Assembly (NCBI GenBank): GCA_051294375.1
Contig: CM119269.1
Location: 4,729,046 to 4,793,045 of the forward strand
Origin: Paraspadella gotoi
Lineage: Eukaryota; Animalia; Chaetognatha
DNA: 64,000 nucleotides
Direction of reading: 5' to 3'
The notes under the pieces are model-generated. The model did not search any database. It was given only the letters and a program-made list of their open reading frames with translations, and was not told the DNA's origin. Shown here piece by piece: positions 11,546-52,327 of the stretch; position 1 is the stretch's first letter; each line of letters opens with the position of its first letter. The translations under genes and the position numbers were made by a program.

Positions 11546-11630
<85 letters not shown>

Positions 11631-11947: not shown

Positions 11948-12023
<76 letters not shown>

Positions 12024-16933: not shown

Positions 16934-17009
<76 letters not shown>

Positions 17010-17317
17010 AAACGCCAGATCGTCAACGGAACTGGATCGTTTTTTTCTCTAAGGAACAAAACATCTTTTTTTTCCATACCTTAAAACGATTCTCTTGTGC
17101 AACGAAAAACCTCCTTCTGCCAACCCCCTCCCCCCCCCCCAAAAAAAAAGACTATCAAAAGACGAGCGAGCGACAGTCGCATTCAGTTAGGATCTTCATA
17201 TTTTTTGACGGGTTCATCCGCTCCTGAAAAGATACATAACAATATTATTTTGAATGAAAATCTGTTCGCATTTCTAATCTACTAATCTTCTAATATGTTC
17301 TCCGTTTTCATCTTTCA

Positions 17318-17401
<84 letters not shown>

Positions 17402-18985
17402 CCTCCTCTCGATCGCGACCTTCTTTTTGGCTTCCAAATTCCGCCGCCGAAGCATCAAATTGACTGTGAAATAAGAAAAACCGCTGGCGGAGAAAAGGAA
17501 AGGAAAAGGAGGGAAAAGAGAAAAAGGAAAAAAAGAAAAAGGAAAAAAAAAAAGAAAAAGTTAAAAGAGAAAAAAAATGTTAAGACAAACGAAATGGAAA
17601 TTTAATTTAGAATAGAATTAGATATAAAAATAAAAATAAATAAAATAAAAATAGAATTTTATTCCCTTGTTGTGCTATTGTTTTCTATAAGATGTAATGA
17701 TAATGATAATGTTAATATCATTGTAAAAGTGCTTTTAGATAAAAAAAACAAAAAAAAACAAACAAACAACAAAAAAAAAAAAAAAAAAAGANNNNNNNNN
17801 NNNNNNNNNNNNNNNNCAACTAGTGAATCGGGTGATCACTGATCAGGCTGGTGAAACAGGCAGTAAAGGATGCTAACAGAAAAGAGAAACAAGCAGTGAA
17901 GGGGGCGAACATACAGTGAAGGTGGAACGAAATGGTGAGACAAAAAGAATTGGTTGAAGAAAAAAGGGAGTGAAAAAGTCGGAGAATTTGAGAGGCAAAT
18001 CTCCAACCTTAATTTCACGACGTTATTCGTAGCTTTCGTCTTTGCTCCCTGATTGCTTCTCTTTCAAATCAGCTTTCGTTGCAATTTAACATCAGACCAA
18101 ACAAGTTTGCTTCGAGATTTGCAGTTTTTCTTAAAGGAGAGTGAGATGAATGGCGAGCCGATGCAAAATATGTTTCCGACTGGGTACGTGTTTTAAAGGC
18201 TGCAAAAGGGACGACAAAATTACTCATGCGACGATCTCTTGCACTCAATAACTCGTATATGCGACTCTGGATGTAGCAGGCGGCCTGGGAGAAGTTCGGT
18301 TGGGAGGCGCGACTCGAGTTCGCCGTACGCGAAATTGAGTCGAGCGCCCTCTGCTCGAACACGCTTGTTAGCAGGACGCACGCCGCGCGGATGCCGCCCA
18401 CGCTGGGCATGGTCCTCCCTCGGGACCGACGGGGCTTGTAGAGCTATATATTGGAAAGCGCCGTTCTGTCACACGGGACTAAAACTGACATAGAGAAAAA
18501 TTATCGTGTTCTGTCGTCCGTCGTTGCCGCTCTTCTGCCTTTCTCTCAGAATGCAGGTGTGTGTGATAGTAAGCGAGTGAGTATCGTATAAATATAGGCC
18601 TATATCCGGATTAATTAAAGTTCACCAGAGATTATTGGAAGTCGTATCTTTGTTGAAATTGAGTTTTTTGTAAAAAAACCGTTATCTTTCGGTATATTAG
18701 GCGGTTTTGAGTGCGGTTTAGCCGCGGTTCTGTAGATTATATTGTAAAAGAATTGAGGATGCTCGGTATTAGATCAGTCTTAGGATAAATGTAGGATATT
18801 CAAAAGTGAAACGATTAACAGCGTATAAGGACCTTCATTTCTGCAATAGGGCACTTATACTAGTACTAATAAATGAATGTCACGTAACGATCTCATGCGA
18901 AGGGATAGCAGACGTCGTCGGTTATCGTCAACCGCTGTGAGAGCACTGTGTGCTACTCCTTACAGCTCGATCGAAGAAGGGTCAT

Positions 18986-19762
18986 GTCTTTAGTTTTGGA
19001 CTCAGTAATTTCTCTCACTGGCTCGCCGACCACAATTTCCTTTGATACTGTATGAGTTCTGTCGCTTTAAAAAAATTCAGACGACGAAACGAAGCTGAAC
19101 CGTTAATGATGAAAGACTGGGATGTTTAAGTTTAGTTAAAGTATCTTCGCTTGTTTAGTTTGTTTGTTTATTCTTTGTTTAGTTTTTCTTTTTCGTCGAC
19201 GAAGGAAGCGGAACTGAATATGACAATGTTCTCTTCAAGACCAGAAGCGGGTTTTCTGCAAAAAGAGGGAGAATGTGTTAAAAATTTGATGATGGAAAAG
19301 TATAAATCTGTAAGATAGAACAATGAGAAGAAAAAATGAAGAAAGAGAAAATAAACTGCGTACAAAAATACAATAAAAAAGATTTGTCGAAATATTTGAA
19401 AAAAATTAACGAGAATATAAAAAAAAATTCTCGAATTTCAATAAATTTACCATACCGAGTATTATTTAAAACCGAATTTATTTCTCGAATAAACTTAAAT
19501 ATCATACATAGTAATTCACGTCTCAGAAATAGATAATTTTTCTTTGATGATAGCGTTTTTGATACGCTGGTCGCAAGGAACGGTGTTGTTCCTTCTCTTC
19601 TCGTACCTCCTGAGGAGATATCAGGTTTTGGGTCTAAATAAGACAGCAACAAAGAAGATCGCGACGACGACGACGACGACGGCGACGACAGACGGCGACA
19701 GCGTCGGCGCGCGCGGCGAAAATGACGATCACGGAGAATTCATTTCTCCTTAATTTTTTTTT
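18986..19762 (+). repeat. Direct duplicate of 33852-34629
   Basis: Near-identical text (ctcactggctcgccgaccacaatttcc...ggagaattcatttctccttaattttt) differing mostly by single-base indels. Confidence 0.9.
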
Positions 19763-22700
19763 GAACGGAGCGGGATTTCTCTCTCAGCTCTGCCTGCTAT
19801 AATTATTAATACGCCCTTAGACATCATATAACGCCTATCTACATATGAGAACGCGTCACTCAGAGAAAAAAATATAATATAATCATTTTGACATAAAAAG
19901 ATTTGACACGGAGTATTAAGTTTATATTTCGTTGAAGAGGGGCGAGAATGAAAGCAGCTGGCGAATAACAGTCGTACGTCAGGCTAGGGAGAGAGAGAGA
20001 GATGCGCGCGTACAATTCGCGCGCTTTAGAGGCACTGCTATAGCGAAGAACCGCGAGGATGAGAACCTTGTAGAGACGCAAAGGACGTGTTTGGGAGGAT
20101 TCTTCACACAGGGCGAAGCGGAAGAAGTCCCATCGAGGAGGAGCAGAAGAGCAGAGGCTAAAGTAAACAGATGAGGAGAGAGGGAAGAGAGAAGAGAGAG
20201 AGTTAGGAATGCCAGATTGGAAACAACAGGAAAAAAAAGAGACAAGGCCACAGGCAGAGCAGAGAAGCAGAGAGAGATAATATGTGATTGTCAAATGTGA
20301 AATTGAGAGTTTTTAGACGACGAGACCGCAGATCGACTTTGATCTCAGAGAAAGAGGAAGCAAGGCGTCGAAGAGACCGGAGTCTCAATTAATGTCCGTT
20401 TGCATCGACATTGATGAGTAGGTTAAATAATGAAACAAAAGCACCGGACAAGAGACGTAGAAAGGGTCGACAAAATGATACGAGAGAACTCAGCGAGAAG
20501 ACAGTCTCAGAGAGCACATTTCTGTTCAGACATACCATTGAGACGCCAAAATGTCCGTAAAAGGATTACTTCGAGCGAGAGTCGAACATATAGCGGGTTA
20601 CTACAAGAAAGTTAGACGTGCTAGCCATGAATGAGATAAAACACTTGTTGAGGTATGCGAACACGGGGCGACGAATTCACTACTAGTGTATGGCGAGCAA
20701 TGTAACACGAATGATAATCAGATAAACAGACACACTGGTTCTAATTATAAAGACCACGAATCTTAGCCCTGTTCGTGGCAAATCGCTGTGGGGCCTCATA
20801 AGTCGACTATGTGAACAACAAAGTCCTAAATAAAGTTTATCAAATAATGGTCTCGTCGGCTGGGAAAAAATTATCCAAAGACGGGGAGGGAATATATATA
20901 TATACAAATATAAGCACGAACAAGTTTTACCTATAAACACCCATTAACGAGCAAAATGTTAGACAGTTGGTTTAGTTGTGCTCCGTTCCCGCAAACCGAT
21001 GGTACGGTAATAATAACAAATTCTGGCCGGGTCAACTATGGAGGCAACAATGTGAGTAGTGAGCAAGGAGCGGGGAGAAGCTACCCTTAACTAGTCGTCA
21101 TCTCATGTAGGCAGCAAAATAAAATATATATAAAACCTCACGTTTTTGCTTCGTTTATTTCCTGTTGGTGGTATATTTAGTGGCTGATAATCCAAATGGC
21201 TAGGTATCGAGGGGTGGGAATCGTCCGGTTACGCCTTTATTTTTTGGAATAAAAAAAAATATCAGTTGGTAAGCTGAAAATCACAATAAAGGTCCAATAC
21301 GTCACCATGAGAGAGTATATAGTGCGCCTGAACTCGTGCGAAGGCTCGCCAAGGTGGATAATATGAATGTACGATAGGGAACCGCACACCGACAAATAGG
21401 CAACGTAGGAAGGGACAATATTAATATAAAACTGATAAATTATGAACGGATATTGCATGCACCTGAAAAAAGAAGTTGGTAGGGCGCTATGTTACGACAT
21501 ATAACCGCAAAACACGAAGTTAGGTAACATGTCAGATAAATGAAAGGCGAGTAGCAATCGGGGTGAATAAGAGAATTTACAAAGACGATCGAAAGTGGGC
21601 TGAGAAAGAAGTGAAAAAGCCCAAGTCACGTGCTGAGGTCGAACGCTTAAAGGTTTCACCAAAAATATAGAGCGTCTGCGGTGAACAAATGTCGTCGCAG
21701 ATATTTTGGAAGAATATTTAGTCATTTTATGGAGGAACATTGAAGAGAGATAAATACAGAGGAAACCAGCAACAAACATACAAAGATGTAAAGCAGGATA
21801 TAACATATACTTATATTACAGATTTGAAATCTCAGTCGCACGACCATTTCGCACGATTGGGAAAAAACGAAGGGCGCCGTGATAAGCATCTGCCAGACTC
21901 TTGCAGTTGTAACATGATTTAAACCATCCCAAGGGCCACATGTATCAATATGAAAGCGTATATGCAATTGTTTATTATCTCATTGTAGTATAATGTTAAA
22001 CGGAGCGGGCAAATGGAATTGTTTTAAAAAGAATAAAACAGAAAGATAAGAGAGGATAGCGTCTTATCACCTTCATTGACCTTATTGCTGGGCTCTGTTT
22101 TGTTATTTTTGCTGTTCGTAAGGTTAAATACACTATACATACATCTTTGCTCAATGAAATTTCGGTACATTCACTTGTGTTCAAGCATGGCCTATATTAT
22201 CTGCTTATAGAGAGAAAACCAAATGTTAGTAACTTTCTTTTAAATATTATTTCCCAATAACTTGGGAATTTACTGGCTGTGTTGAGACGATCCTATTTGA
22301 GCATAGACCAGCACTCCAGATCGCTATTAAGCGATGAGTACGAACTCCACAAAGAGCAATGTTTTGAGACAAAAAAATCATTAGTAACACTTGAATCGTA
22401 TCACCAATAGAAGGAGGAAGTTTTTAATAACCAACTATCGGGAGTAGAAAATATTCTAGGTTAAACAGAGGAAGGGGTTAGCAGCGTTATATGAGAAATC
22501 GTGAGGAGGCAACTCTTATATTATAAACATTACTCAAGTAATATAAAATTTTTGTATATGTATGGTTACTGTAATACCAGCCAAACTATCTCCCCATAGC
22601 GCAAATAATCAGTGAGAGCACGTAGCTTAATAACTCTTATACACGGCATAAACCGATCTGGCTTTGGAGAGATTTAAACAAAGGGGACTTCTCTGGAAAA

Positions 22701-25424
22701 GCATTATCCTAATATTCTCCCACTAACAAATAAACACAATGATGCAAAAATAATAAATGAGAGTTAAAGAAATAAAAACCACTTTGTTATATGGAAAACC
22801 GATAGGACCACATTGTTTCCCATTCCATTTGTTAGATAATGTCATTATCCCTATCATATCATCTGTATTTGCTTCCGCTAGCATACCTAGAAACAAGATA
22901 CCGAGCGGATTATAACTCTATATTATGCCATGACGATGGCTCTCCTTTCGGGAGAAGTCCTCACCAGAGGAAAAAGAGATCCCATGACCTTGTAATATAT
23001 GTGGTAAGATATGCAGCATCAGCCACTCTTATCATACAAACCACTTAATTATGAGGTTTTCTTGTAATAGAGAGACAATTATTACTCATCTCCTGAATTA
23101 TGATATATTTTATACTCGAAATAGCGCTCAGAGTACTCATAATTTAATTTTTCATCCTACATACTAAATGTAATATATCTAGGCTATTTAGGTATTAGAA
23201 TCTAATAAATCTACAGTAATAACTAATAAGTACTTGATTAATTGATGCCTTGCACGACAGGAATCTACACTCTTGAGTACGCGCTTCTGTTTATACTTTC
23301 ATCAACTACACGTAATTATTTCTCTTTGAACACAAGCGTGTCGTATCTCCAAACGCAGAGTCTCATCCGTTACTCCATCTTCTCTCAATTTACATACATA
23401 TTTCTCTATAGCTCTCAGGTGACGCAATTTAATAAGTCTCGGTGAAATGTCTGTGTACATCATGACAACATCGTGAAGATTCTATATGAACAGAGCAAAT
23501 TTACATCTCTACTGTGTCACTTCACTAAAGAAAATGCGTAAAGTCGGACCAATCTTATCAAAACCGCCTATATAAAGTGTTCTTCTCTCTTGCTAGATAT
23601 TATTCATATTCTAAAAAAGTTACATCGATCACTTTTTATGACAAATCTTAAGCTATACCAGATTTACACGGCTAATCTGAATTATCTCCTATTCTACCTT
23701 CTTATGTGCAGATGGGATTACTACACCTGGTCTCACCTTACTCTCTCTACAAATATTACTTCGCTGTCCGACTACACTGGTTCATTAGATATATAGACTA
23801 TCACCCTATAGTCGATCATCCACATTATATGCTCTAAACTAAAAAGTATCGCGTATATTATGTATTTCCTTATAAGCCGGACTGGAATAAACATACTTCA
23901 CAGACTCGCCACTTTTTTCATGATTGACTAGTCAATTGCTAAGCTCAGGGCTCTAATATTATCTGATATTCGAGACACAGCACCAATTAATGATCGACGA
24001 GTAAAAGATCTCTGAGGAGAGAACGGTATTTCGCTGAGAAACAGCATTCCAAAGGAGCTTACTTAAGATTGTCTCCTTTTATCAACTATAAGTCTTATCC
24101 TTCTGTATCTGAGAAGCGATGTCTAATGGTTGGTCTTCTATGTATCTTGTAGATACTTTTCCTGCTCTCTCTTTGTTAGGTTTCTTATATAATCATTAAC
24201 TGTTTCATTTTTATAGTCTGAATCGCACAGGAATTTTCTTGCACACACCATCCGGCGCGCGTGATTAATCGTTTCTTTCCTCAGATTTTCATAAAAATTC
24301 GATTTTTTCATACATGAATTCTTTTTCTAGAGCACAACGCTTCAGTTAAATAGAGTTCGTTAAGCTGATCCGCGTGTCTGTCGTAAATCCAATCGTCTTT
24401 GTCAGACTTCTGCCGCAAACGCCATACTTTAGTCTATAACACCTCACAAAAAGGTAACTGTCCATAGTTTACAGCTCACTCCCCAGAGATATCATGCACA
24501 AGTGGGGAAAACGAAAAAAAGATGGAATCGAACAAAAAGTCGCGTAAAATATGATGTGAAATAAGCAGAGGGAAAGCACAATAAAAGATACTTAAACTTT
24601 GGAAAGATAAAAAATGAAACGAAAAATATAATACTAATGTTTGTCACAATTATAAATTTATTGTTCTTGTGTAATAGATTATTGCCCTATATAGGCATAG
24701 CTAAAGAAGGGAGAAAGAACGAGAGAAGTGAATAGCAACCCCCAATGTCTCAAAATCATGAGAAAACATAGGATCTACCGACCAAATTATATATAAGCAA
24801 GCCATCCACTATTTATGCCGCAAATGACTTATAGCGCGGAGCAAGTATGTAAAAGAGACGAAGATAGATAACACAGGCGGGATATGAAACTAAAGTAACA
24901 AGAGGGTAAAGACATAAAGCCAATATGCACACTGACTGTGAGCAAACGGGACCCGAAAATGGACTGTTGGAAAAGCCAAGGAGATGTCTGCATGCTAGTT
25001 TCTTTGCTTATCTCAGGAGCAATCGATTCGGCGGAAGTCGGCGGAGAGGTAGCGAGAGAAAACAGACGAAGCGGCGGAAGGAGGAGGCGGCGGACCCCGA
25101 GGAGGAAGGGAAATCCACAAGCGAAAAGACAAGAGAAGGGAAAAACAGTGCAGGGGAATGAAACAAGTTGGTGAATGCAGGGCCAAACAGACAGGTGAAA
25201 TAAAGCAGCCGAACAGGAGGGCCAGAGACAAGCTTAATGGGAGGAAAGCACATAAGTCAGCAGGAAGGGGGATCGAACCAGTAGAATGGTAAACTAAGCA
25301 GGCAAAAAGAGAGCAAAGAAATAGTAAGTGGGAAGACAACTAAGTGAAATCGGGGGGTGGATCACTCGGATTCAGCGCTGGCTTGTGAAAGCAGNNNNNN
25401 NNNNNNNNNNNNNNNNNNNAAGGA

Positions 25425-35688: not shown

Positions 35689-37268
35689 CTTCTAGCACCG
35701 CCGTCTTTCGATAAACTGTTTCGATGGCGTCGGAAGTGGGCGCGCCCACCATCGACAAGAGTAAGACGGTCCGGAGGAGTGAAGGATAGAGATTGTGACG
35801 TCGAAGGCGGATTTGGGAAAGGGAGGAAGAGGAGGAGGAGGAGGAGGGAGAGGAGAAAGAAGAAGAAAAGAAAGCGAAGAAGAGAGAGGAGAGAGAAAAG
35901 AAAAAGGATTCGCCCGAGAATTTCTTCGACGCCGCTTTTTCCAGAGGCACCGGTAATTTTTCGATCACAGGCGACGCCGGCGCCGTTGTTAGTCTCTGGC
36001 GATTCTCCAAAGAAAGAGCGCCGTCCCGTTCTCTTCGACTTCGCCGCTCGTTACGACAGCGCCGGTTCAATCGATTGGTTTGACCGGAAAACGATTTTGA
36101 AATTGAATTGATGGCGCCGCGTTGGGGAAAAACGGGGTGACGTCGAGACGTGAGGGCGCTGTGGCAAAATCCGGCGACGCGGTTGTGGCGTCGCCTCGAA
36201 CGAGGGCGCGGCAAGGAATCTCGATGACGAAAGTAACGACGCATCTTCGCCACCCCGTCGGCGACGCCGCCACGGCGGCAGTGACGTTGGCTGCGCGGGA
36301 TTATTGGAGACGGTGGGCGCGGGGGTCGCGAAGACTCACACACCAGTGTCGAGCAGGGGTGTGGGGATAAAGATTGACGAGCCAAAACCCCCGAAAAAGG
36401 GGCGGAGGTTGGCGTATGAGTGGCCAATCCGCTAGAAAGGAGGGTCAAGTCTCGATCCTCCGCGAAATCCCGCGCGTGGGAGAGAACGTGACTCCACGCC
36501 CACAGCGTCTCTCGACGAATCAATCCGCCGGCGCTCTTCCTCGTCGTCCGAGTGATTATTTCCGCCCGCCGCTCGATTATTTCCGGTCGCGAAGGGATTA
36601 TTTCCGGCTTTTCCCCAATTATTTCCAGTTTCGACGCGAGGCCGAGAGAGGGGGCGGCAGGGGAGGATGGGGAAGAGGGGTCGAGGAACGAGGGAGAAGG
36701 GGAGGGAAGAACGAGTGGAGCGAGAGAGGGAGGGAGATGGAATGGAAGAGAGAGTGGAACAGAGTTGGTCCCCGACCGGAACACGCGGAAAGAAATTTGA
36801 CAGATTTGATTCCCGCCTCGTCGCGTGACGAAATCCCGGACGGTGACCGTAATATTGGCGTCAGAAATGTACGCATCCCAGTAGTCCGTAATAGAACGTT
36901 TGTAGTCCGAACGTTTCGTGTCCGAACAACCGCTTATCGAGTTTTCGACGAGACGTTGAAAGTTGAAAGTCTTCGCTTCGTCGGTGAATCGAGGGAATCC
37001 TTCACGTGATATTCGTGATTGAAGACGGAAATTAGACGCCGACAACAACAACGACAACGAATGAACTCGATTAGTCCAGTCTCCTCCTTGACCCAAAATC
37101 TCTTCGGGTTCGCCATCTTCCTCCCTTTCTTCTCTTTCCTCTCTCTCTCCCTCTCTTTTCCCCTCTTCCTCCTCCCCCTCGTCGGCCGTCTCTTCACGTT
37201 GGCCCCTTTGGCCCCGCGGGTCTTTCCAGGTGAGACTAGCGTCGCGTGACCGGAATGCGTTACCGTTT

Positions 37269-37309
<41 letters not shown>

Positions 37310-39890
37310 TTTGGAAGAGCTAAAGGGGGCAAAATCGGACCAGTCTCCGCGTTGGAAGGGTGGAAGTGAAACAAAGGTTGGTGAGCGGTGAAGGTTGTTT
37401 ATGTCGTCGTCGTCGATGTCGTCGTCGGCGGCGACAGTTCTATTTCTCAATTGTGTCGTCGTTGCGAAAGAGAAAACGCGAGGAGTTCGTTGTCCAGCGA
37501 TTCTTTTTGTCTCTCGCCGAAAGATGGCGTTGCGACGCCGGAAAAAGATGCCAAATACGCCGGTTAAACGAGCGGAGTCGAAAAAGAAAGACTTTGGGCG
37601 AGTGAATCGTGAGGTAAGGGAAATGGCTTCACGTGCCGGTGAGTTTGTCGAGATTCCGTTCCCCTTTTTCGAAGAAAATTTCACCGAGATAAGAACGTGG
37701 TAAAGTAAGTTCGGGCGGTCGAAGAATCCCGCGGATAAGTTCCGCCGGACGGTGCTGTTCACGAACGCAGCAGCCTCGGGTGAGTGACGCCTTCGACCGC
37801 GGGGGTAAGGTCGTGAATCACGCATCGAGGAAACGTCGCGTCGGAGGCGGAGGCGGACGCGAAGGAGGCGGAAGCGCGACCGACGCTGACTGACGTTTAA
37901 AGTCGCCGTAAAACGCGGGGACGCGAAAAATGGCGAGAAGGGAAGGAGAGAGAGAGGAAAGGACGGAGAGGGGGAAGAGAGAGGAAGCGTTGGTAGAAAG
38001 TAAAAGTTTCTCTCTTTCCAACTTCGTCTCTGGAACGGTGAGAAAGACAGAGAGCGAGACGGCGTCCGAGTAGGCGCCCGACGCCGCATTGGCGGACCCG
38101 GCGTCGCCGTCGAATATACGAATTGGCGGCGTCGTCGGCGTCGGCCGAGTCGGCCTCGTGGAAAGACGATGGCGAAAACGAAAAAGTTTCGATTCCATTT
38201 TTGGCGACGAAATAAAATAAAATTTGAGACGAAAAATTCCATCGAAGCCGCCGACGAAAACGACGACGACGAAAACGACGACGACGACGCCAGCTCAGAA
38301 TTTGAAATTTTTGATTTCCGGATTATTTCCGGAACGAGTCCCGAAGCCGCGAGAAATTCCGGCACGAATTTCCGGCGAGCAACGCCTCTCCTTCTCGTCT
38401 TCTTCACTTTCCTCCTCTTCTTCCTATCTTTCTCCTTCTTCTCCTTCTTCGTTGCGTCGCGAAAGAAGAAGAAGAAGCGAGGGGCGAAAAATCGAGCGGA
38501 AATGGGGCGTGGCCGGCGAGGGAGGGAGGGAGGCGAGGGAGAAGGAGGAGGAGGAGGAGGAGGGGAGATTCCTCCGGGGAATAAAAGGATCGCGAGAAAC
38601 GACGGACGGTCGTTGTTGTTGTTGTTTCCGTTGTCGTTGTTGTTGGCGTAGATTTTGTTTTGTTTCCGACGACGTTCGTCCTCGTCGCTGTCGTTTTGTT
38701 TTTCGCCGTCGTCGTTGTCGAATCCCAGCCTCGTTCTCGATCCGTCGTCGTCGTGGTCGTTGTTGTTTGCGTCCTGCTGCGAGAAATCGACAACAATGAC
38801 GAGAGGCGATATTTTCCTCTCGTCGTAGTCTTCGTCGTCGTCGTCGTCATCGTCGTTGTCCGCTCGGACGTCAACAAAACCGGTCGAGATGTTTTCCCAA
38901 TTGAGAGGACGCGTCCGGTGGAGAAGGACCGGCGATGATGTTTCCTCGATTCTGTTTGCGTTGTCTTCGTCGTCGTCGTCGTCGTCCTCGTCGTTGTTTT
39001 CGGCGTCTTCGTCGATCCGCCTCCTAATCAGGGGAACAGTCGTCGTCGTCGTCGTTATCGTCGTCTCTTCTTTGTTGCCAATTTTCGCCAAGCGCTTCTG
39101 CCTCGCTTCTTTCTTCGCTGTCCTCCCTTTCCTTTCCTCCGTCGCGTCTCTTCTCTCCCTCTCTTCTTTCCTCCCCTCTCTCTCCTCGGTCCTCGATCTC
39201 CCTTTCCTTTCCTCCGTCGACCGAAATCCTTTTTTCTCTAATTTCTTTTCTCTTTCCTCTCTTTTCTTCTTCCTACATTTTCCAGATTTCTGCGTCTTTC
39301 GCTTTTCTTCATCCGTCCCTTCTCCTCTTGTTTTCTCCTCCTTCTTTTCCATCTCTCCTTCCTCCCTTTCCTCCCTTTCTTCCTCCCCTCCCTCTTCTCT
39401 CTCCTCCCGCGCATCTATCATTCCATCTCGAGCAACTCGGCTTGACCTTTGCCTTAACAAATGAGAGTCGCCCGGCCAAGACTTTGTCGATACGTCGTCG
39501 TCGTCGTCGTCTTCATCGTCTTCGTCTTTTTCGTCGTCGTCCCGAGAGAGACTGACGACAAGCGCCGGGGTTTTGGGGATTTCTATTTTTCCCTCGGCGT
39601 CGTCTTCGTTTTCGGCGTCGTCGGCGTCATGGCGCTCGCTCGCCACGCCCCTCGACGCTTTCCCGCGGGCGTTGACGTTTCCAGGTGGCGATGAGGACGC
39701 CGAGTCATCGCCGCCTCGAACGAGCGGCCCTTTTTCCGAATTCCGGCTATTTTCGGCCCCTCGGGGGTCATCCGTGACTCCCCCGGAGGAATCGCTTTCG
39801 GGCGAGAGGCAACCCTTAACCCTTCGCTCCTCTTCTCCCTCTAACGCTTTCTCCTCTTGAATACTTAAAGAAGATTCAATTACAGAATTC
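35689..39890 (-). CDS. Giant (4202-nt) stop-free exon: low-complexity D/E/R/S-rich region ending in a signal-peptide-like stretch and the first strand of an Ig domain (Ig gene 'exon 1')
   Basis: The supplied 1342-aa ORF extends upstream in frame to the acceptor tttttttatcattag|G AAT TCT (39890). It ends ...SLLRTVLLLSMVGAPTSDAIETVYRKTAVLE-G at the donor AG|gtgagg (35688), phase 1. About 1400 codons have no stop, while the ORFs listed in the other frames here reach only ~60-210 codons. Confidence 0.6.
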
Positions 39891-39990
39891 CTAATGATAA
39901 AAAAATGTTTAATTCTGAGTAGCCTTTTCCCTCAAATCCCATGGAACCCATCCTTCTCCATCCCATCGACTCAACCCACCCCCCACCCAC

Positions 39991-40156
39991 CTGTATCTGT
40001 TCTCCCCCAGATGGCGGAAGTGATACTTGTCCAGATCGACGGTTCCATCGTAAGGTGAGTCTCCCTGCGAGAGAAACCGGATGCCCTGAAACCCCGCCGT
40101 CTCTTTGATCCAGACGGCGGGAGTGGAGGAGCGACACTCGAACGCCACCGTCGCGC
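39991..40156 (-). CDS. Ig-superfamily exon ('exon 2'): first half of a V/I-set domain
   Basis: cctccag|GC ... TAC AG|gtgggt. Encodes (G)ATVAFECRSSTPAVWIKETAGFQGIRFLSQGDSPYDGTVDLDKYHFRHLGENRY(R), with the B-strand Cys and C-strand Trp. Phase 1 start, phase 2 end. Confidence 0.8.
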
Positions 40157-40428
40157 CTGGAGGGTGGACGGGTGGAATCGGAGGGTGGAATGGGGGTTGA
40201 AAGAGGTGGTCGTGGGAGGAAGTGGACGAAGAAGGGAGAATAGGGAAATGAATTGGAGGGAAAGAAGGGGGAAAGGGAAAAAAGGGAAAGAAGGGGGAAA
40301 ATGGAAACAAGGGAAAAGGACAGGGAGGAAATGTGGGGAGGAGAGAGAAGTGTGAAAAAGGGAAAGGAAAGGAGAGAAAATTAAATAAACTGTTAAATAA
40401 AGAAACTAAACTAAACTAAACTACACAG

Positions 40429-41033
40429 TAGAGCGTAGTGAAAGTTACGTACGGAAATTCTAAAAGTCAATTATGAACAACATACCATCAGTGAACATTA
40501 ATTTGTAAAAAAAAAAGAATTTTATGTTTTTTAATTTTCGCAGTAAGCTATATTTATATATAGTACAATCCTTATAAATCGAAAAATTTCAAAATAGGCT
40601 TTTCTTAATTTTGATTGCAGATTTGAATTCCTTGTCAAAAGTTGCTAAAGAAAATATAAATCATTTTTTAAAAATTCTTTCATTAAGTGGTTAAAATTTA
40701 AAAAAACTATATTTAATAAATAAAAAATTAATTTTCAGCTTAAAATATAGCTTTTTTTATTTTTGACCCACTTAATAAAGGATTTTTTCAAAAATATTTC
40801 TTTTTAACAACTTTTTATGACAAATCCAAATCTGCAAAAAAATCTTAGAAAAAACTGTTTTGAAATTTTAACATTTATTGGATTAGTACTAGTATAAATA
40901 TGGCCTACTGCGTAAATTGTAAAATTTATTATAAATTTCTTTATTACATAAATTTTTCATTAGTATAAATGTGTTCATTCCTCACTTTTAAAATTGTAAT
41001 TAAAGTTAAATTTAGAAATTTTACTACGCCTTA
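40429..41033. mobile_element. Palindromic hAT-like non-autonomous element (MITE) with 8-bp TSD CTACACAG
   Basis: ctacacag at 40421-40428 and 41034-41041. TIRs TAGAGCGTAGTGAAA / TTTTACTACGCCTTA. Internal inverted matches (cgcagtaagctatatttata vs tataaatatggcctactgcg; attaagtggttaaaa vs tttgacccacttaat). A deleted relative lies in block A (about 7140-7327). Confidence 0.72.
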
Positions 41034-41323
41034 CTACACAGCCTTCGACTTCGTGGACCGTTTCAAGGTTCAGAATATTTTTATATGGTATTGCTTTGTT
41101 TAAATCCAAATTAAATTCTTATTTTTGTTCTAAAACTTTAGCGTTTGCACTTGGTAGCTTAGAAAGCCTAAAAAGCATTTGAGTTCGTTCAATTTAAGCT
41201 ACATAAGTTGTTTGATTTTTAATTATTTAATCATGTTCATTCCATCCTTTTATGTTTTTCCTTTCCAACTCACCCACGTCTTTGCCACCAACTTTTTTTC
41301 TGGCTTCCGGTCGCCTCACCCAC

Positions 41324-41373
41324 CTGAACAATCGCAGGCCTTTGCTAATCTCGGTGATAAAGACGATGGCAAA

Positions 41374-41405
<32 letters not shown>

Positions 41406-41438
41406 AGACGACGACGACGACGACAGACATTAAATCCC
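41324..41438 (-). CDS. Possible hydrophobic poly-Val exon (signal anchor/TM-like)
   Basis: gaccag|GG GAT TTA ATG TCT (GTC)n ... TTC AG|gtgggt gives DLMSVVVVVVFVVVVVVVVVVFAIVFITEISKGLRLF(R). It uses the same gtgggt donor as two Ig exons, but (GAC)n tracts are common non-coding DNA in this window. Confidence 0.25.
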
Positions 41439-42019
41439 CTGGTCGATTGACTATCTTCCGACACGTCCGAAATTCCTTTGCAATTTGCCTCCATCCCCTT
41501 CATATCTTTCTCTCACTTTCCATCTTCTATTTTCCCGATATATTTTCCTAATACATCTTTTCTCTCTTTCCATTTTCCCACCCTCCTTCCATCCATCACC
41601 TTTTCCTTACTCCCCCTCCCCCAGAAAAAAAAAAGAAAATCCCGTTCCGTGATATGCGTGTCTCCGTCATTCAAACTGCTGACGAAATGTAAAATCCCTT
41701 CGGTCGCCACCTGAGAAACTAAAAAGCTCTCCCCCCCCAGCCCTACCCCCACCGCCTCCGCTTCCTTTTCATACCCAAAAAGAAAAAAACTTTTCATCCT
41801 AAAATTTTTTTTTAACTTACCCTCCGGTTCCTCGCCCATTTCCTTCTGTTCCCCCCCCCGAATTCTCCGAGGCCCTTTATATCTCCACATGCCCACCCCA
41901 CTCCCGTCCCATATTTTTTTTTTCTAATCCAATTTCCAATCTTCGTGAGTTTAATTTTTCTTTTCGAGCTCTCTCTCTTTCTATCTCTCTTTAAAACTCT
42001 CTCTTTCACTATAATCTCT

Positions 42020-42097
<78 letters not shown>

Positions 42098-42103
42098 CTC
42101 CTC

Positions 42104-42138
<35 letters not shown>

Positions 42139-42259
42139 TATGCTCTCTCGCTCTCTGCGTCTTCTATCCCCCCGGACTGTCCCTCTCGTCTGTCGCGCCT
42201 TCGCTGTCTCCGCGTTGTTTCCTTAGAGACGGATTTCATCGCCTAGCAACCGACGATAA

Positions 42260-42493
42260 TGGCGGGAAACGGCAATCAGGGAATTCAAACGAGATCTTGA
42301 ACGATGTTGGCGCGAAGGAGGCAGAGAGAGAGAGTTGGGATTGTTTGGCGCGAAGGAGAGCATATATATAGAGATGTGATTGGTTGGCGTAAAATAAATG
42401 AGACGCGTGCTTGGTTTAGCAAGTGAGGCATGACGGTCGCGATTTCTTGGCGCGAAGGAGAGCAAGCGGAATGTTCTCGGTTGGCGGGGGAAA
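42260..42493 (+). promoter_or_regulatory. Cluster of E2F-like motifs with a CCAAT box
   Basis: tggcgggaaa (42260), ttggcgcgaa three times (42307, 42345, 42447), ttggcgggggaaa (42481), attgg (42379). Motif match only. Confidence 0.3.
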
Positions 42494-43044
42494 CCAAGCA
42501 AATGGGATCGGCGTGCACACTGCACTGCACACTGTTGCAGTACACTGCACAATGCACACTGCAAAAACGGTGCAATACTCTTCAAGATCGTCGATTGCTA
42601 TAGCAACGGATCTAAACTGATTTTGATGACAAAAGATTTTCGATTACAGATTTTAATGAAAAGTTTGAGGTCACGAGCAGACTCTAAGGTGGGTTTTTGC
42701 TGTTTAGGTCTTTTTTTTTTAAACAAAACTTTTGTTGTAGCGAATTAATCAAGTACTTTTTAAATAATGGTCGGGAATGGAGACCGCTTTATGGTGGTTT
42801 AAGAAAAAAAGCAAGGAGTATGAAGTGGAGAGAAGGAAGAGGAGGAGAAGGAGGAGGAGAAGGAAGAAGAAGCAAGAAGAAAAAGAAAAAAGGAAGAAGG
42901 GTGGAAACAACTGAAAAGGGTTTGGCGAAGCCTCGTCTCAAAAGAAGAATAAGAATTAAAAAAAAAAAAAAAGCGAAAAGGAAATTAGAGACGAGGGAGA
43001 AATTATGAAGAACGTGAGAAGAGAAGAGATGAAAAGAAGAAAGA

Positions 43045-43300
43045 AAAAAGGATTAAAGAAGAAAATAGAGATGAAGAAAAAGAAAAAGGACATAGAATGA
43101 ACCGTCGGAAGAAGAAGAAGAAGAAATAAAAAAGGGATTAAAGAAGAAAGTAGATATGAAGAAAAAGAAAAAGGACATAGAATGAACCGTCGGAAGAAGA
43201 AGAAGAAGAAGAAATAAAAAAGAATTAAAGAAGAAAATAGAGATGAAGAAAAAGAAAAAGGACATAGAATGAACCGTCCGAAGAAGCAGAAGAAATAAAA
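43045..43300 (+). repeat. ~85-88-bp purine-rich tandem repeat, 3 units
   Basis: attaaagaagaaa...aaaggacatagaatgaaccgtcggaagaag recurs at about 43052, 43137 and 43225. Confidence 0.85.
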
Positions 43301-44168
43301 AAAAAGGGAAAAGTCATTCGAGGAAAGGGGGAGGGGGGAAGAAAAGAAAGAAAAAAGAAAAGAAAGAAATAGGGGAGAGACGAAATACGAATTTTAATTA
43401 TTACGAAGCAGAGTCGATATCAAAGACGGAGATCGGTCGCGTGGAAGCGATTCTCTTTATTGCGATGTTGAAATGATGAAATTTAACAAATGAACGAATA
43501 AAAAGATAAATAAAGTAGTACTTTAATAGATTAATGGATTTCTTTGCTGTAGGAGAAAAAAATATACTATCTGAATTAGTTCTTAAAAATCTATATTTTA
43601 ATTTTTTTTTTTTCATTTCCGATGCAATGATAAATATTTGAATGCCTTATTATGCTTCAGTAATTTTATTAGTACAAATCAATTAAGTAAATAAATGACG
43701 CCAAAANNNNNNNNNNNNNNNNNNNNNNNNNNNNNNNNNNNNNNNNNNNNNNNNNNNNNNNNNNNNNNNNNNNNNNNNNNNNNNNNNNNNNNNNNNNNNN
43801 NNNNNNNNNNNNNNNNNNNNNNNNNNNNNNNNNNNNNNNNNNNNNNNNNNNNNNNNNNNNNNNNNNNNNNNNNNNNNNNNNNNNNNNNNNNNNNNNNNNN
43901 NNNNNNNNNNNNNNNNNNNNNNNNNNNNNNNNNNNNNNNNNNNNNNNNNNNNNNNNNNNNNNNNNNNNNNNNNNNNNNNNNNNNNNNNNNNNNNNNNNNN
44001 NNNNNNNNNNNNNNNNNNNNNNNNNNNNNNNNNNNNNNNNNNNNNNNNNNNNNNNNNNNNNNNNNNNNNNNNNNNNNNNNNNNNNNNNNNNNNNNNNNNN
44101 NNNNNNNNNNNNNNNNNNNNNNNNNNNNNNNNNNNNNNNNNNNNNNNNNNNNNNNNNNNNNNNNNNNN

Positions 44169-44199
<31 letters not shown>

Positions 44200-46243
44200 G
44201 CCGAAAGCAGGTTGTTTCAAAATAGGACGCCATAAAAAGCCAACTGGAAAAGCGTTTGGTGGCTTGTTGGGGTAGGGAGAAAAATGCGTGAGAGAGAGAT
44301 AGAGAAAGGATATGAGAGAGAGAGACTGGGAGATAGAGAATGAGACAGAGAGACAGAGAACATGAGGGAGGGGAAACTGAGAGATAGAGATTGAGACAGA
44401 AGGGGAATCGGGACACACAAATTTCCTGAAAACGAAAACGATCATAGTGAGAGCCTGAGATGTAGAGAGGAAAACGAGTCAGAGGTGGAGATAGAGAGAG
44501 AAGAAAATTGGATAGAAAAGTCGAGGAGAGAGAAAGTGTGAAAGAAAAGAAGAGAACAGGAGTAGGGGAGAGAAAGGATAATGACCTCATCGACTCGTCA
44601 ACCTGAGAGCGACTGGGAGATTACGAGAACATGATCCTCTGGACAGACTGGCAGACACTGCTGAACATTTTCTATCGGTGTCTCCTACCTTTTCTTCTGT
44701 GTTTTCTTTCTCTTACTACTTTTCGCTTTTCTTTTCGTGTCTCTTGCGTCTGTGAATATCTCTTCTCACCTCCTCTGACTCTGAGAGTTATTGAGATTGA
44801 GACTCCAAGTCCTCTCCTTCTCCTCTTCCTCTTCCTCATCCTCTACAGGGGGAATCGGGACATCACCACAATTCAATTTTTCCTGAAAACCCTCTGATAA
44901 GTCATCGACCGACCTCTACTACTTCCTCCGTCGTGAGAGCTCTGCTGCAATCTGCTTACTGCCCTTAGCGAGAGTAAACACGACGTCCAGAGGTGGACTC
45001 TCCCTGATACGATCCTCTCCCTCTCTTCTGAAGTATTCGTCTTCTCACGATACTGCTTCGAAATACTTTTTGCTGAGTATCTTTTCAGTCACTACAATCC
45101 TCTCCCGTCGAGAGAGAAGTGTTTGATTAAGACAAGACACCTTGAGAACTCAGTCATCTGCGTTTTAGGGTCCGGAATATAACTAAACATGAAATGGCCG
45201 CGGTTGACAAATGTCCCCCTGGTGAAAAAATTGGGCGTAACGATGTTTGATGGAACATTATTTAAGCCCAAAAGACCAAATAAAAAAGAAAAAAAGGATC
45301 ACGCTTCTGGAAGGAGCCAATGAAGAAGAAGGAAACTCCATCGGGCCTACCTGAGAGATTAAAAGAAGAAACAGAGCAGAAACAGGATGAAAAGGGAGAG
45401 AGACGTAGAGAAGAGAAGCAGAACAGAGGAGAATACCACGCCGCGACTTGTTTGCATAATCGCGCATTTGACGAACGCGTTTGCATAACGATCACTCCCT
45501 CGTGAGGGTTTGCGTTCAAAAGCCCGCTAAGGATGTCCAAGTAGAAGAGATGGCGAGTATTTCCTTGCCCTCCGAACTTTCGAAGAGTGAAGGCGTTTTA
45601 TCATGTGTGCACTAGGCTACATCGCTGAGCGAACGGCAGAGTGGAAAGAGAGTAGAAAGCGTATTCAGAGAACACTTCGAGAAAGCTTACTTTGTATATC
45701 GTGTCCCGATTGATAGAGTTTTTCTGGGTTCGGCCTTGGCGACAAGAACGAAAATAGAAACCACAATGGCTCGATTTAATAAATGAAACCCAGAAGGTTG
45801 TACAATTGTGGAATTGAAGGCTTACATGTAGTAGATGGGATAAGGATAGCAACGCAATAACTCGCTGACGTTGATAGAAGAAGAATGAGAGAGAAGAGAT
45901 GAGCAATAGGAAGATGGAGAGAGACGAGGAAGAAGAAGAGATGGATAGAAGAGAGAGAGAGACGATATAATAGAATTGTAAAGAAAAAAATCCTTTCTGC
46001 TTAAAACTAGAGATCTACACCCATTGCAACACGGCCAGGTGGGGCTTCACGACACGCGAGAGACGAGAGAGAAGGAGAGAAACAAGATTTGCGAGGAATC
46101 TTGCATTTAAATTGACCGTTAACGTTCGGACGTTGCTTTTTCAGGCTTAAGGCACGAAGCGGTACAAGCTTTCGCGACTGCATCTATATGCTCTGCCTCT
46201 GTTTGCTATTCAATTTCCAATCCCCTCCTCTCTCATCTCTCTC

Positions 46244-46329
<86 letters not shown>

Positions 46330-47645
46330 GCTCTCTCTATCCTCTCTCGCTCTCTTCTTTTCATTGTTTATCTCCCAATAATTTTTTGCATTTCTTTATA
46401 TTTATAAATTTATTTCGACAATATTTCCAAAGGTCGATTAGTAAACAAAAATATTTGTTATCCAAATCTGACGAGAACGGCTTCACTCGTAGCGATAGAT
46501 TGAAAATTGTAAAAAACCCTGTAAAGTTTTATTTTCGGAGCGAAGGCTTGAGTAAAATAAAAAAAAAACGAAAATAAACGAAAATGCGGCATAAATAAAA
46601 ACATTTCCTGGGAGGCGACGCAAGCGTGGCGTCTCGTCGGCTTCGACGATTGCGTCACGTCAGCGACGCGAGACTCGAATTGCATTTCCTGTCTGGTGCC
46701 CATTTGCTGAAGCTCCGTTAGGGTGCTATCGCCCCGACTTTAGGCCAAAAGTAATTAAATGATTCCACGTTTGGAGAAATTTTGACAAGAGATTATGCCT
46801 CAAAGATGCTGAAACATTGAAAAAAAAAGTTTAAAAAAAGTAGGCTTGTAGTTAATCCGAAAATATCCGTTTTTATTGAAATCTAACAGCGGCTTGTTGT
46901 TAGAATGAATTATATTGGAAACCTCTTCATTTTTTCTCCGCCTACCCCACGCAAAAAAGACTAGTAAGTTTCCAACGCAAAACGCTTTTATTTCCAAGTT
47001 GGCTTTTTATGGCGTCTGATTAAAGTTAAGTCAGAGTAAACGTTTTGGAAATAGCAAATCCCTCCTGCTTTTCGGCCTTTCCTGCTCTCTCCGAAAAATC
47101 GGATCACATTGCGTGACATGAACAATCTCTCACGGGCTGTTCTCCTGAAGCTCCATCCCCTCCGCTTCTGACCGTCTGATCCCTCTGCGCACTAATTCGG
47201 CATCATCTCGCGAAAGCATAAAATCCTCACCAAAACAAAACGAGCTCTGTTACTGGTTTTTCTTACCGCGAGTGACAAAGGCCAAAGAATCTTCCGGCAA
47301 TTCGTCCTTCCAGGTTGAATGGCGTGAATAAGTCGTCACTCATTCGATTCCCTCTCTCTCTGCTCGTCCCGCAGGCGCAAAAATCGGTCCTGGACAAACG
47401 GCCCAAATCTCAGCTCGATGAGTCGTTCACGTCCAATGGTCAACCCGTTAGCGGAAGGTTTTTCCTTCAGACGATCGATAGAAAGCATCTCATAATTCGC
47501 GTCGGAATATCTCGACGTGCAGGCCTTGAAGGGATTTTTTGGGGCACGTTTAAACCGAAATCGCGCAGATTTGGCAAACGCGTGCTGACTAAGTAGCTAA
47601 ATTTAAAGGAAGAGAAAGGAGAGAGAAGGAGAAGAGAGAGAGAGA

Positions 47646-47676
<31 letters not shown>

Positions 47677-47843
47677 GNNNNNNNNNNNNNNNNNNNNNNN
47701 NNTCAAGCTAACATCAGCGGTCATACCTCTGGACAACTCAGCTCCCATCCCCTAACGCACCTTAAGACAGCTTGATCACTCACTCCGCCACAACCATCCA
47801 CCCTTCTTCCTTCAAACCACCCTTCTTGCATCCCCCTACCCAC

Positions 47844-48049
47844 CTTGGGGCAGTGCAGTCTGGGCCTGAACCGCACGTCCAAAGTGCCGCATTCCGTGTA
47901 GGGCAGGGAGTGGCTCCGGTTCCAGTGATCGTGATGGGAGATCTCGCAACCAAGCTGCTTGTCGTGATCCTTGTAGCTTGGCACGAGGTTGAGAACGTTC
48001 ACTGTTCGGTTCTTGTTGGTTCGGGGGTGGCCGAGACGGGGCTCTCCGC
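47844..48049 (-). CDS. Ig-superfamily exon ('exon 4'): second half of a C2/CD80-like domain
   Basis: cctcccag|GC ... AAG|gtgggt. Encodes (G)GEPRLGHPRTNKNRTVNVLNLVPSYKDHDKQLGCEISHHDHWNRSHSLPYTECGTLDVRFRPRLHCPK, with the LxLxPxxxDxxxxLxCxxxH motif. Its phase 1 start matches the end of exon 3. Confidence 0.82.
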
Positions 48050-48196
48050 CTGGGAGGAATTGGAAGGGGGTTTAATGCAGTGGTGGGCATTTAAAAAGTA
48101 TGTATTTATTGTATTAGTTTAGTCATTTTGGAATGGTAAATAAATATCTTATCAAAAAATGTTTAATCGATACGGAATTGAGTAACGCATTGAGTA

Positions 48197-48282
<86 letters not shown>

Positions 48283-48944
48283 GATTAATACGTTTAACGG
48301 CGTTCCTTGACTCTGGTCATTCCATCACACCATCCCTCCGTCGTTCCATGTATCCGTCCGTTAATCCGTTCCCCTTAGCCTCGCTCCGCGCTCCCGTCTT
48401 GATTTATTCTCCCTTTTATTGCGAGACTTTTTTTTTAATCTCAAACCCTACGTACGCGTGCGATTCGTTTTGAAAAAAAAAATTTAAATGCTTTTATCGA
48501 ATCGAGGTGAGACGAGAAGAAGCATAAAATTAATTCATTCGTTTAATTATTCTTTCATCTCATTTTTTTTATTTATTTATTCTTTCGTTTAAATAATCAT
48601 ACATTCACGAATGCATTGATTCCTTTACTTATGTCAAAATTTGTTGGCACCTTCCTTCTCTCACTAATCCTCTGGTTCAATCTTCTATTAATTCTCTGAC
48701 TCTGTGCATCATTTATTCTCATTCATATTTTCATTCATTTATACATTTTTTTTTCATTCACTCATTCATTCTCTTATTCAGTGGATCATTTATTCTCATT
48801 CATTTTTTCATTCATTCATACATACTTTTTCATTCGCTCATTAAATTCCTAGTTCATTCAGTCATTCCCTAGTTTATCTTCTAATTCATTCATTCACTAA
48901 ATCCCACATTCTGTCATTCAGCCACTCGCCCTATTTGAACTTAC

Positions 48945-49144
48945 CCAGTATCCACGTGATCTTGGGCCTCTCCTCACGCGACGACGAATAAACGACGCAG
49001 CTGAAGGAAGTCGGTTTCTCTTCCTCCAACGTCGTCGTCGTCAAGACGCAACTGGGACGCGTCAACACGACGAGCGTCACCATGAGGGCGTTGCCGCATT
49101 TGTAGGAGCCGCCGTCTCCGAGGCGGACGTTGTGAAGGGTCAGC
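48945..49144 (-). CDS. Ig-superfamily exon ('exon 3'): end of Ig1 and start of Ig2
   Basis: ccttcag|G ... CTG G|gtaagt. Encodes (R)LTLHNVRLGDGGSYKCGNALMVTLVVLTRPSCVLTTTTLEEEKPTSFSCVVYSSREERPKITWIL(G), with the canonical LxxxxVxxxDxGxYxC motif. Phase 2 start, phase 1 end. Confidence 0.87.
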
Positions 49145-52100: not shown

Positions 52101-52246
52101 TTTTTTTTGCTTCTCTCAGCTTTTTGAATGAAAATAGAGAGGGGAACAAAAAAGGCAAAGAAAGTCATGGAGCTTCGTGAGAAGTCAACATGAAACGGCA
52201 GTGGACATCGCCTTTGAATATGAATCAACTGGTTAAAATATTCACT

Positions 52247-52327
<81 letters not shown>

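What the first reader, a model, noticed from the sequence alone, without database searches (positions are those of the whole stretch)
35689..49144. Ig-superfamily gene with scrambled (non-collinear) exon order
Seen: four minus-strand exons have canonical splice sites whose phases chain exactly. They are exon1 (...RKTAVLE-G, ends 35689), exon2 (40156-39991, G-ATVAFEC..W..NRY-R), exon3 (49144-48945, R-LTLHNVRLGDGGSYKC..) and exon4 (48049-47844). Joined 1-2-3-4 they give a hydrophobic leader, an intact V/I-set domain (EGxTVxFxC...W...LxLxxVxxxDxGxYxC) and a C2/CD80-like domain, as in nephrin/Kirre/sidestep-type proteins (family pattern from established knowledge). On the minus strand the physical order is 3,4,2,1, and there is no N-gap between exons 2 and 1. 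Inference: either the contigs are scaffolded in reversed order or individually flipped, or the locus really needs DNA unscrambling, trans-splicing or back-splicing. Re-inverting each block in place would restore a collinear + strand gene.
Basis: partly seen in the sequence, partly recalled or inferred. Interest (0 to 1): 0.85.

Follow-up and report, generated by a model that had tools for sequence, protein, structure and literature searches.

The report
False join scrambles an Ig gene
The four exons of this immunoglobulin-type cell-surface gene are real, but their out-of-order layout is most likely a genome-assembly error, because short-read contigs from three samples break at a hidden join between two of the exons and run on into other DNA.

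Summary
The four exons, their splice sites and the 3,4,2,1 layout are in the window as described, and order 1-2-3-4 gives a stop-free V-set plus C2-set Ig protein. The layout is very likely an artefact. In 3 of 3 DNA runs laid (3 samples, 2 studies) the contig on the exon-1 side leaves the window there for 177 letters. In both runs that cover the exon-2 side the contig leaves for 78 letters. No contig bridges the join. The same pattern of same-strand blocks in reversed order occurs in sequence without detected exons at 6367-12155, and flipping each block in place restores collinearity with another copy. About 18.7 kb of the window lies in near-identical duplicates. Still open: the true neighbours of the join, and any RNA junction. 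Correction: 'exon 1' is not a short leader exon but the 3' end of a stop-free frame of about 1,400 codons.

The parts
35689..39873 (-). Exon-1 block: very long stop-free exon of about 1,390 codons, low-complexity acidic, basic and Ser-rich. It ends in a short signal-like hydrophobic stretch, then the start of Ig domain 1 and a phase-1 donor. Its true 5' end lies beyond the false join.
   Evidence: the listed contigs of X1 and X3 (39499-39873) and X5 (39497-39873) match it with 0 differences
39873..39874 (.). Hidden false join (no N) between the exon-1 block and the exon-2 block
   Evidence: tables 2 and 8; bin arithmetic
39991..40156 (-). Exon 2: likely N-terminal half of the V-type Ig domain (first Cys, then Trp); phase 1 in, 2 out
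   Evidence: no Ig hit on its own in Pfam or PDB
43707..44168 (.). 462-N gap between the exon-2 block and the exon-3/4 block
47678..47702 (.). 25-N gap just downstream of exon 4 on the minus strand
47844..48049 (-). Exon 4: C-terminal half of the C2-set (CD80-like) second Ig domain; phase 1 in, 0 out
   Evidence: Pfam C2-set_2 positions 61-85, E 0.019; four short relatives at E 4e-5 to 2e-4; profile hits domain 2 of CD22, CD33, Siglecs, MAG, SYG-1 and Roughest at E 0.018-0.94
48945..49144 (-). Exon 3: E-F-G strands of the V-type domain plus the first half of domain 2; phase 2 in, 1 out; collinear with exon 4
   Evidence: Pfam V-set positions 75-91 on residues 1-17 (E 0.0021) and Ig_3 positions 2-36 on residues 30-65 (E 0.00063)
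6367..12155 (.). Internal control: same-strand blocks in reversed order (collinear ranks 7,5,6,3,4,2,1) with blunt N-free joins
12153..17791 (.). Collinear copy of 25943-31588 in inverted orientation, 98% identical with 58 gap openings, ending at a 25-N gap
17817..25394 (.). Patchwork between two 25-N gaps: copies of 25.6-25.9 kb and 33.85-34.64 kb, a short copy of 32.9 kb, and a noisy inverted copy of 2.9-4.5 kb

Best explanation
Four real exons that read as a V-set plus C2-set Ig protein in order 1-2-3-4 sit in order 3,4,2,1 most likely because the assembly wrote the pieces of an ordinary collinear gene in reversed order (equivalently, flipped each piece in place) and fused one pair without a gap at 39873|39874. 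Shown: this join is absent from short-read contigs of three samples, and the same reversed-block pattern exists elsewhere in the window next to a collinear copy. Inferred: scaffolding or long-read gap filling produced it; in the organism the gene runs exon 1, long intron, exon 2, intron, exon 3, exon 4 and is spliced normally in cis. The product is likely a cell-surface adhesion or recognition protein of the SYG-1/Kirre/nephrin/Siglec-like V+C2 architecture, with its remaining exons outside the window or in gaps.
For: (1): the contigs X1 r6 (552 nt), X3 r13 (552 nt) and X5 r21 (554 nt) stop fitting at 39873 and each carries 177 further letters. The contigs X1 r7 (444 nt) and X3 r14 (272 nt) stop fitting at 39874 and each carries 78 further letters. 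No listed piece bridges the place in 4 of 4 runs. (2) The depth of bin 39862-39888 equals the weighted mean of its two sides (predicted 52.5, 128.1, 18.0; observed 52.6, 128.1, 18.1), so no unlisted contig crosses it. (3) The break lies in the 128-nt stretch between the exon-2 donor and the first in-frame acceptor-like AG of the exon-1 block, where a misjoin had to be and where I chose to look. (4) Of 6 differences from the contigs, all on the exon-2 side, 4 lie within 54 nt and 5 within 101 nt of the join, as expected for poorly polished sequence at a chimeric join (inference). (5) Control: 6367-12155 tiles 26011-31588 in reversed block order; five blocks flipped in place align collinearly with 12153-17725 at 96-97%. 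(6) 18,711 of 62,534 non-N bases lie in repeats of 95% identity or more. There are nine N-gaps, five of exactly 25 N. PMC3504050 (passages read) says 25 or more N define a gap for PBJelly and that overfilled gaps result from errors in the original assembly. (7) Exon 3 begins at V-set position 75 of 109, so about 70 upstream residues are needed, and exon 2 plus the end of exon 1 supply about that.
Against: The letters of the two loose ends were not printed (one search showed 24 loose ends and left out 149). The true neighbours are therefore not shown, and a skipped insert with a repeat inside remains possible; the control copy itself has one clean 236-nt skip without N. X5 had no cover on the exon-2 side. 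X1 may be the source sample. Contigs drop rare variants. No RNA junction was seen. In the sequence as assembled, the exon-2 donor could splice in frame to AGs at 39890 or 39863. No full-length relative was found to confirm that exon 1 pairs with exon 2. The joins on the exon-3/4 side were not tested with reads.
Confidence: 0.93

Rival explanations
1. The assembly only skipped an insert at 39873|39874. The order 3,4,2,1 is real in the genome and the mRNA is built by trans-splicing of separate transcripts, as at Drosophila mod(mdg4).
For: The loose-end letters were not seen. A clean N-free skip of 236 nt exists in the control copy. All mod(mdg4) mRNAs are made by trans-splicing (start of abstract of PMC13490949, search listing only).
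Against: It needs two backward joins (1 to 2, 2 to 3), one of them inside an Ig domain. It needs a chance break in exactly the interval that a misjoin predicts. It leaves the identical reversed-block pattern in sequence without detected exons, with a collinear copy beside it, unexplained.
Confidence: 0.03
2. The pieces belong to separate tandem paralogues or genes: exons 3-4 to one, exon 2 to another and the long exon 1 to a third, with their partners in gaps or outside the window.
For: Ig genes often lie in tandem (established knowledge). About 1.5 kb of the window is N. No RNA links exon 1 to exon 2.
Against: tblastn of the joined peptide finds each exon once and no second copy in 64 kb; the next best hit has E 1.5. 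The phases and the Ig strand register fit exactly. Paralogues would not predict a break at 39873|39874.
Confidence: 0.025
3. Programmed DNA unscrambling: the assembly captured a scrambled (germline) form, and the short-read runs show the unscrambled form that dominates the body.
For: Contigs drop rare variants, so a minority form is not excluded. Scrambled and collinear copies of one segment coexist in the window.
Against: In ciliates, pointers are repeated at the end of segment n and the start of n+1 (PMC9797194, passages read). The six control joins overlap by 3, 11 (inside a GA repeat), -236, -1, 24 and -6 nt, so 3 of 6 have no overlap at all. The copies differ from each other by 2-4% with many indels (one short block by 11%, one by 1%), as noisy reads do. 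I recall no such system in an animal; this was not searched exhaustively.
Confidence: 0.015

Closest known systems
Scaffolding and gap-filling misassembly (mis-oriented pieces; PBJelly-type overfilled gaps, PMC3504050)
   Same: Duplicated flanks in inverted orientation beside 25-N gaps, noisy fills, and joins that short-read contigs do not support.
   Different: The program responsible was not identified. That PBJelly writes exactly 25 N at such gaps is recalled; the passages read say only that 25 or more N define a gap.
V-set plus C2-set_2 Ig cell-surface proteins (SYG-1, Roughest/Kirre, nephrin, CD22, CD33/Siglec, MAG)
   Same: Leader-like stretch, V-type domain, then a CD80-like C2 domain; the exon-4 family profile hits domain 2 of CD22, CD33, Siglecs, MAG, SYG-1 and Roughest.
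   Different: All hits are weak (E 0.018-0.94) and the Pfam scores lie below the curated cut-offs. No orthology was shown. No membrane span or tail was found in the window. About 1,360 low-complexity codons precede the leader-like stretch.
Scrambled genes of Oxytricha and related ciliates (PMC9797194)
   Same: Segments of a gene out of order in an assembled sequence.
   Different: The scrambled join is not in the organism's short-read contigs, and the control joins carry no consistent pointers.
Trans-spliced mod(mdg4) and lola of Drosophila
   Same: Would give an mRNA whose exons are not collinear with the genome.
   Different: There, common exons join alternative 3' exons from separate transcripts. 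Here two backward joins of constitutive exons would be needed, and the genomic order itself is unsupported.

Membership tests
Ciliate-type scrambled gene | The scrambled adjacency exists in the organism's DNA | tested here: not met
   0 of 3 DNA runs laid hold a contig across 39873|39874; rare forms are not visible in contigs
Ciliate-type scrambled gene | Pointer repeats at the end of segment n and the start of segment n+1 | tested here: inconclusive
   Testable only on the control region: overlaps 3, 11, -236, -1, 24 and -6 nt, so 3 of 6 joins lack any overlap. At the gene's own join the true neighbours are unknown.
Ciliate-type scrambled gene | Separate germline (scrambled) and somatic (unscrambled) genomes | not testable with these tools
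   No tissue-resolved reads; no whole genome held
Obligate trans-spliced gene (mod(mdg4) type) | Exons non-collinear in the true genome | tested here: not met
   The only N-free join that fixes the order 2,1 is unsupported; a skipped insert is not formally excluded
Obligate trans-spliced gene (mod(mdg4) type) | Junction reads in mRNA from separate precursor transcripts | not testable with these tools
   No listed holder is on record as RNA; the guessed RNA run X9 does not cover exon 2
Back-spliced circular RNA | Exon order is a single circular permutation of the genomic order | tested here: not met
   3,4,2,1 is not a rotation of 1,2,3,4; two backward joins are needed (coordinates)
Ig superfamily, V-set plus C2-set_2 cell-surface proteins | V-type domain: B-strand Cys, C-strand Trp, D-x-G-x-Y-x-C motif, Cys spacing about 65-75 (spacing recalled) | tested here: met
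   Cys29, Trp37, Cys93 and the motif at 78-93 in the joined frame; Pfam V-set E 0.0021 on exon 3 alone, 18.7 bits against a cut-off of 26
Ig superfamily, V-set plus C2-set_2 cell-surface proteins | CD80-like C2 second domain | tested here: inconclusive
   Pfam C2-set_2 E 0.019, 15.5 bits against 21; 15 of 15 PDB hits at E up to 1 are Ig-superfamily receptors, each weak
Ig superfamily, V-set plus C2-set_2 cell-surface proteins | N-terminal signal peptide | tested here: inconclusive
   An 11-residue hydrophobic stretch (mean hydropathy 2.12) lies just before domain 1, but at residue 1362 of 1391 of the long frame; the only Met near it lies inside the stretch, and the previous Met is 164 codons earlier
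Nephrin/Kirre/sidestep orthologue | Further Ig (and Fn3) domains, a membrane span and a tail; phylogenetic placement | not testable with these tools
   No further Ig-like exon in the window scan; no full-length relative found

The most novel reading that the evidence does not exclude
An animal keeps an Ig receptor gene, and neighbouring DNA, as same-strand blocks in reversed order in one genome form (for example the germline), and rebuilds the collinear gene by programmed DNA unscrambling or by double trans-splicing. The assembly caught the scrambled form and the short-read contigs show the repaired one.
Probability: 0.03. Interest if true: 0.92.

Novelty: not a real feature. Interest (0 to 1): 0.08.

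Why it matters
As found, it is a warning about this assembly: it contains N-free false joins and reversed-order blocks, so findings about gene order, duplication or inversion from it should not be trusted without reads. The case also gives a simple diagnostic: same-strand blocks in reversed order that become collinear when each is flipped in place. If the scrambled order were real it would be ciliate-like unscrambling or double trans-splicing in an animal and a major result, but the evidence points away from that. The residual biological curiosity is the roughly 1,400-codon low-complexity frame in front of the Ig leader.

Tried and rejected
No whole genome is held, so paralogues and missing exons could be sought only in the window. 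No RNA holder listed; run X9 (RNA is a guess, share 0.12 of 47800-49300) was laid only on 39430-40210, where apart from repeat matches it gave one 169-nt contig at depth 3.3 (39693-39861) and nothing on exon 2. That is no evidence on expression or splicing. Reads could be laid on one stretch only (4 of the 9 listed runs), so the 3' end of exon 1 and the exon-3/4 block are untested. Homologue searches found nothing for exon 3, for residues 950-1391 of the long frame or for the exon-4 alignment; these are weak negatives. Of 7 representatives hit by exon 4, P0002-P0005 were kept as short relatives. P0006 and P0007 were dropped as unrelated repeat proteins, and P0001 as an internally repeated 163-aa prediction with no Pfam hit. 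Pfam found 0 families in the long frame. PDB searches with exon 3 alone (1 hit, E 0.93) and exon 2 alone (1 unrelated hit, E 1.2) were uninformative. The ESM Atlas gave no answer. The flanks of the join match nothing else in the window beyond 17-20 nt at chance level. The test of exon orders (1 of 24 compatible) treated exon 1 as having no acceptor, which forces it to be first; if it is given the phase-2 AG at 39863, the order 3,2,1,4 also fits in phase (reasoned), but the physical order 3,4,2,1 still fails at exon 4 to exon 2 (phase 0 against 1). Earlier findings: three look-ups returned nothing. Literature searches listed no title describing this reversed-block artefact or animal gene unscrambling; only listings were seen for most papers, no supplements were opened, and this was not an exhaustive search.
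Full report
Observation. The four pieces are present with canonical splice sites at the stated coordinates: exon 2 at 40156-39991 (phase 1 in, 2 out), exon 3 at 49144-48945 (2 in, 1 out), exon 4 at 48049-47844 (1 in, 0 out), and a phase-1 donor after 35689. A scan of both strands for GC-rich exon candidates with Cys and aromatic residues recovered exons 2-4 and no other Ig-like exon. Joined by coordinates in order 1-2-3-4 the frame has 212 codons and no stop, with Cys29, Trp37, Cys93 and an Ig F-strand motif. Pfam places residues 1-17 of exon 3 at V-set positions 75-91 (E 0.0021), its second half at the start of an Ig domain (Ig_3, E 0.00063), and exon 4 at C2-set_2 positions 61-85 (E 0.019); all are below the curated cut-offs, as expected for half domains. 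A profile of exon 4 with four short relatives hit 15 PDB sequences at E up to 1. All 15 are Ig-superfamily receptors (CD22, CD33, Siglec-5, -8 and -10, MAG, SYG-1, Roughest), E 0.018-0.94; that the matched stretches are their second domain is read from the positions and recalled architecture. The physical order on the minus strand is 3,4,2,1, with N-gaps between 4 and 2 and none between 2 and 1.

A correction. 'Exon 1' is the 3' end of a stop-to-stop frame of 1437 codons, 35618-39931. The other five frames hold 30-36 stops each, and 2000 shuffles within 30-nt windows gave a mean of 43 and a minimum of 24. Codon-position bias is significant in five of seven 600-nt bins across it. It is low-complexity and has no Pfam family and no relative for its last 440 residues. 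The leader-like stretch lies at its very end. This also fixed where a hidden join had to be: between the exon-2 donor and the start of this frame.

State of the assembly. The window has nine N-gaps, five of exactly 25 N. Self-alignment shows a 5.6-kb inverted duplicate (12153-17791 against 31588-25943, 98%, 58 gap openings), a further copy of the same segment at 6367-12155, and a copy of 33852-34641 at 18986-19778. The stretch between the 25-N gaps at 17.8 and 25.4 kb is a patchwork of copies of other parts of the window, some very noisy. In all, 18,711 of 62,534 non-N bases lie in repeats of at least 95% identity. The PBJelly paper (PMC3504050; 11 passages read) defines gaps as 25 or more N and says overfilled gaps result from errors in the original assembly. 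That this program made the window is inference.

Internal control. The copy at 6367-12155 consists of seven aligned pieces, all on the same strand as 25943-31588 but with collinear ranks 7,5,6,3,4,2,1, that is five blocks in reversed order. No N lies at their joins. The blocks tile the collinear copy with overlaps of 3, 11, -236, -1, 24 and -6 nt. Flipping the five blocks in place gives three collinear alignments to 12153-17725 at 96-97% identity, with one insert of about 400 nt and one skip of about 240 nt. This is the same geometry as the gene's blocks [3,4],[2],[1], in sequence without detected exons and with a collinear version beside it.

Direct test. Nine runs were listed for the exon 3-4 region; four were laid on 39430-40210. 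In 3 of 3 DNA runs (X1, which may be the source sample; X3, another sample of the same study; X5, another study) the contig on the long frame fits with 0 differences up to 39873 and carries 177 more letters that do not lie on the stretch. In the 2 runs with cover on the exon-2 side (X1, X3) the contig fits down to 39874 and carries 78 more letters that do not lie on the stretch; X5 has no cover there. No listed piece crosses the place. The piece table was cut (31 shown, 9094 not shown), but the depth of the bin that holds the join equals the weighted mean of its two sides in all three runs (52.5, 128.1, 18.0 predicted; 52.6, 128.1, 18.1 observed), so no unlisted contig crosses it. The exon-2 side differs from the contigs of X1 and X3 by five single-base indels and one substitution, none inside the exon, five of the six within 101 nt of the join. 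The N-free continuity that made the finding striking is therefore not in the organism's common DNA.

What is not shown. The loose-end letters at the join were among the 149 rows left out, so the true neighbours are unknown. A skipped insert with a repeat inside would give the same table, and the control copy has one such skip. Contigs drop rare variants. No RNA junction was seen: X9 gave one 169-nt contig on the long frame and nothing on exon 2. No full-length relative confirms that exon 1 pairs with exon 2. In the sequence as assembled the exon-2 donor could splice in frame to AGs at 39890 or 39863; the first of these lies on the other side of the false join, and such a product would cut the V domain in half.

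Mechanism and rivals. Most likely (0.93) an ordinary collinear, cis-spliced Ig gene was written as reversed-order blocks by scaffolding or long-read gap filling. The falseness of the join is shown; the cause and the true order in the genome are inferred. A real order 3,4,2,1 with trans-splicing (0.03) needs two backward joins and a chance break at the predicted place; mod(mdg4) is the precedent (PMC13490949, listing and start of abstract only). Separate paralogues (0.025) are not seen: each exon occurs once in 64 kb. Programmed unscrambling (0.015) would need pointers at segment ends (PMC9797194; 12 passages read), and 3 of 6 control joins have no overlap. A single back-splice is excluded because 3,4,2,1 is not a rotation of 1,2,3,4.

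Verdict. The exons and the Ig reading are real and ordinary; the scrambling is very likely not a real feature. Interest 0.08. The most novel reading not excluded, true scrambling in an animal, has probability about 0.03 and would deserve 0.92.

Noticed in passing
window 35618-39873 (-): Stop-free frame of about 1,400 codons with acidic, basic and Ser/Pro-rich blocks, in frame with the Ig leader. It has no Pfam family and no relative was found. If translated, it is an unusually long N-terminal extension before a signal-like stretch; its true start lies in the 177 letters beyond the false join.
   Followed up: partly
window 6367-12155: Five same-strand blocks in reversed order relative to 25943-31588, with blunt N-free joins; collinear with 12153-17725 once each block is flipped.
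   Followed up: yes
window 12153-17791 and 25943-31588: 5.6-kb inverted duplicate, 98% identical with many indels, each copy ending at or near a 25-N gap; likely gap-extension duplicates.
   Followed up: partly
window 17817-25394: Noisy patchwork between two 25-N gaps, holding copies of 25.6-25.9 kb, 32.9 kb and 33.85-34.64 kb, and an inverted degraded copy of 2.9-4.5 kb.
   Followed up: partly
window 8837-9243: About 400-nt insert in the scrambled copy with 125-nt inverted arms (8863-8986 and 9121-9243, 96%); possibly a fold-back read artefact or a small element.
   Followed up: no
window 40446-41000: AT-rich element with long imperfect inverted arms (71-74% over about 500 nt), with related pieces at 30045-30246 and its duplicates; MITE-like.
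   Followed up: no
window 39493-39541: A (CGT)n repeat drew thousands of contigs in every run (summed depth up to 1.2 million in X3), so such triplet repeats are extremely common in this genome and in run X9.
   Followed up: no
window 35688-35660, 39990-39930, 47843-47790, 40157-40230: Introns of this gene begin with G-rich and end with C-rich stretches, unlike the AT-rich bulk of the introns.
   Followed up: no
window 52000-59500: GC-rich, irregular-looking sequence with degenerate 9-nt repeats (54436-54649); it may be unpolished long-read fill and could hide further exons.
   Followed up: no
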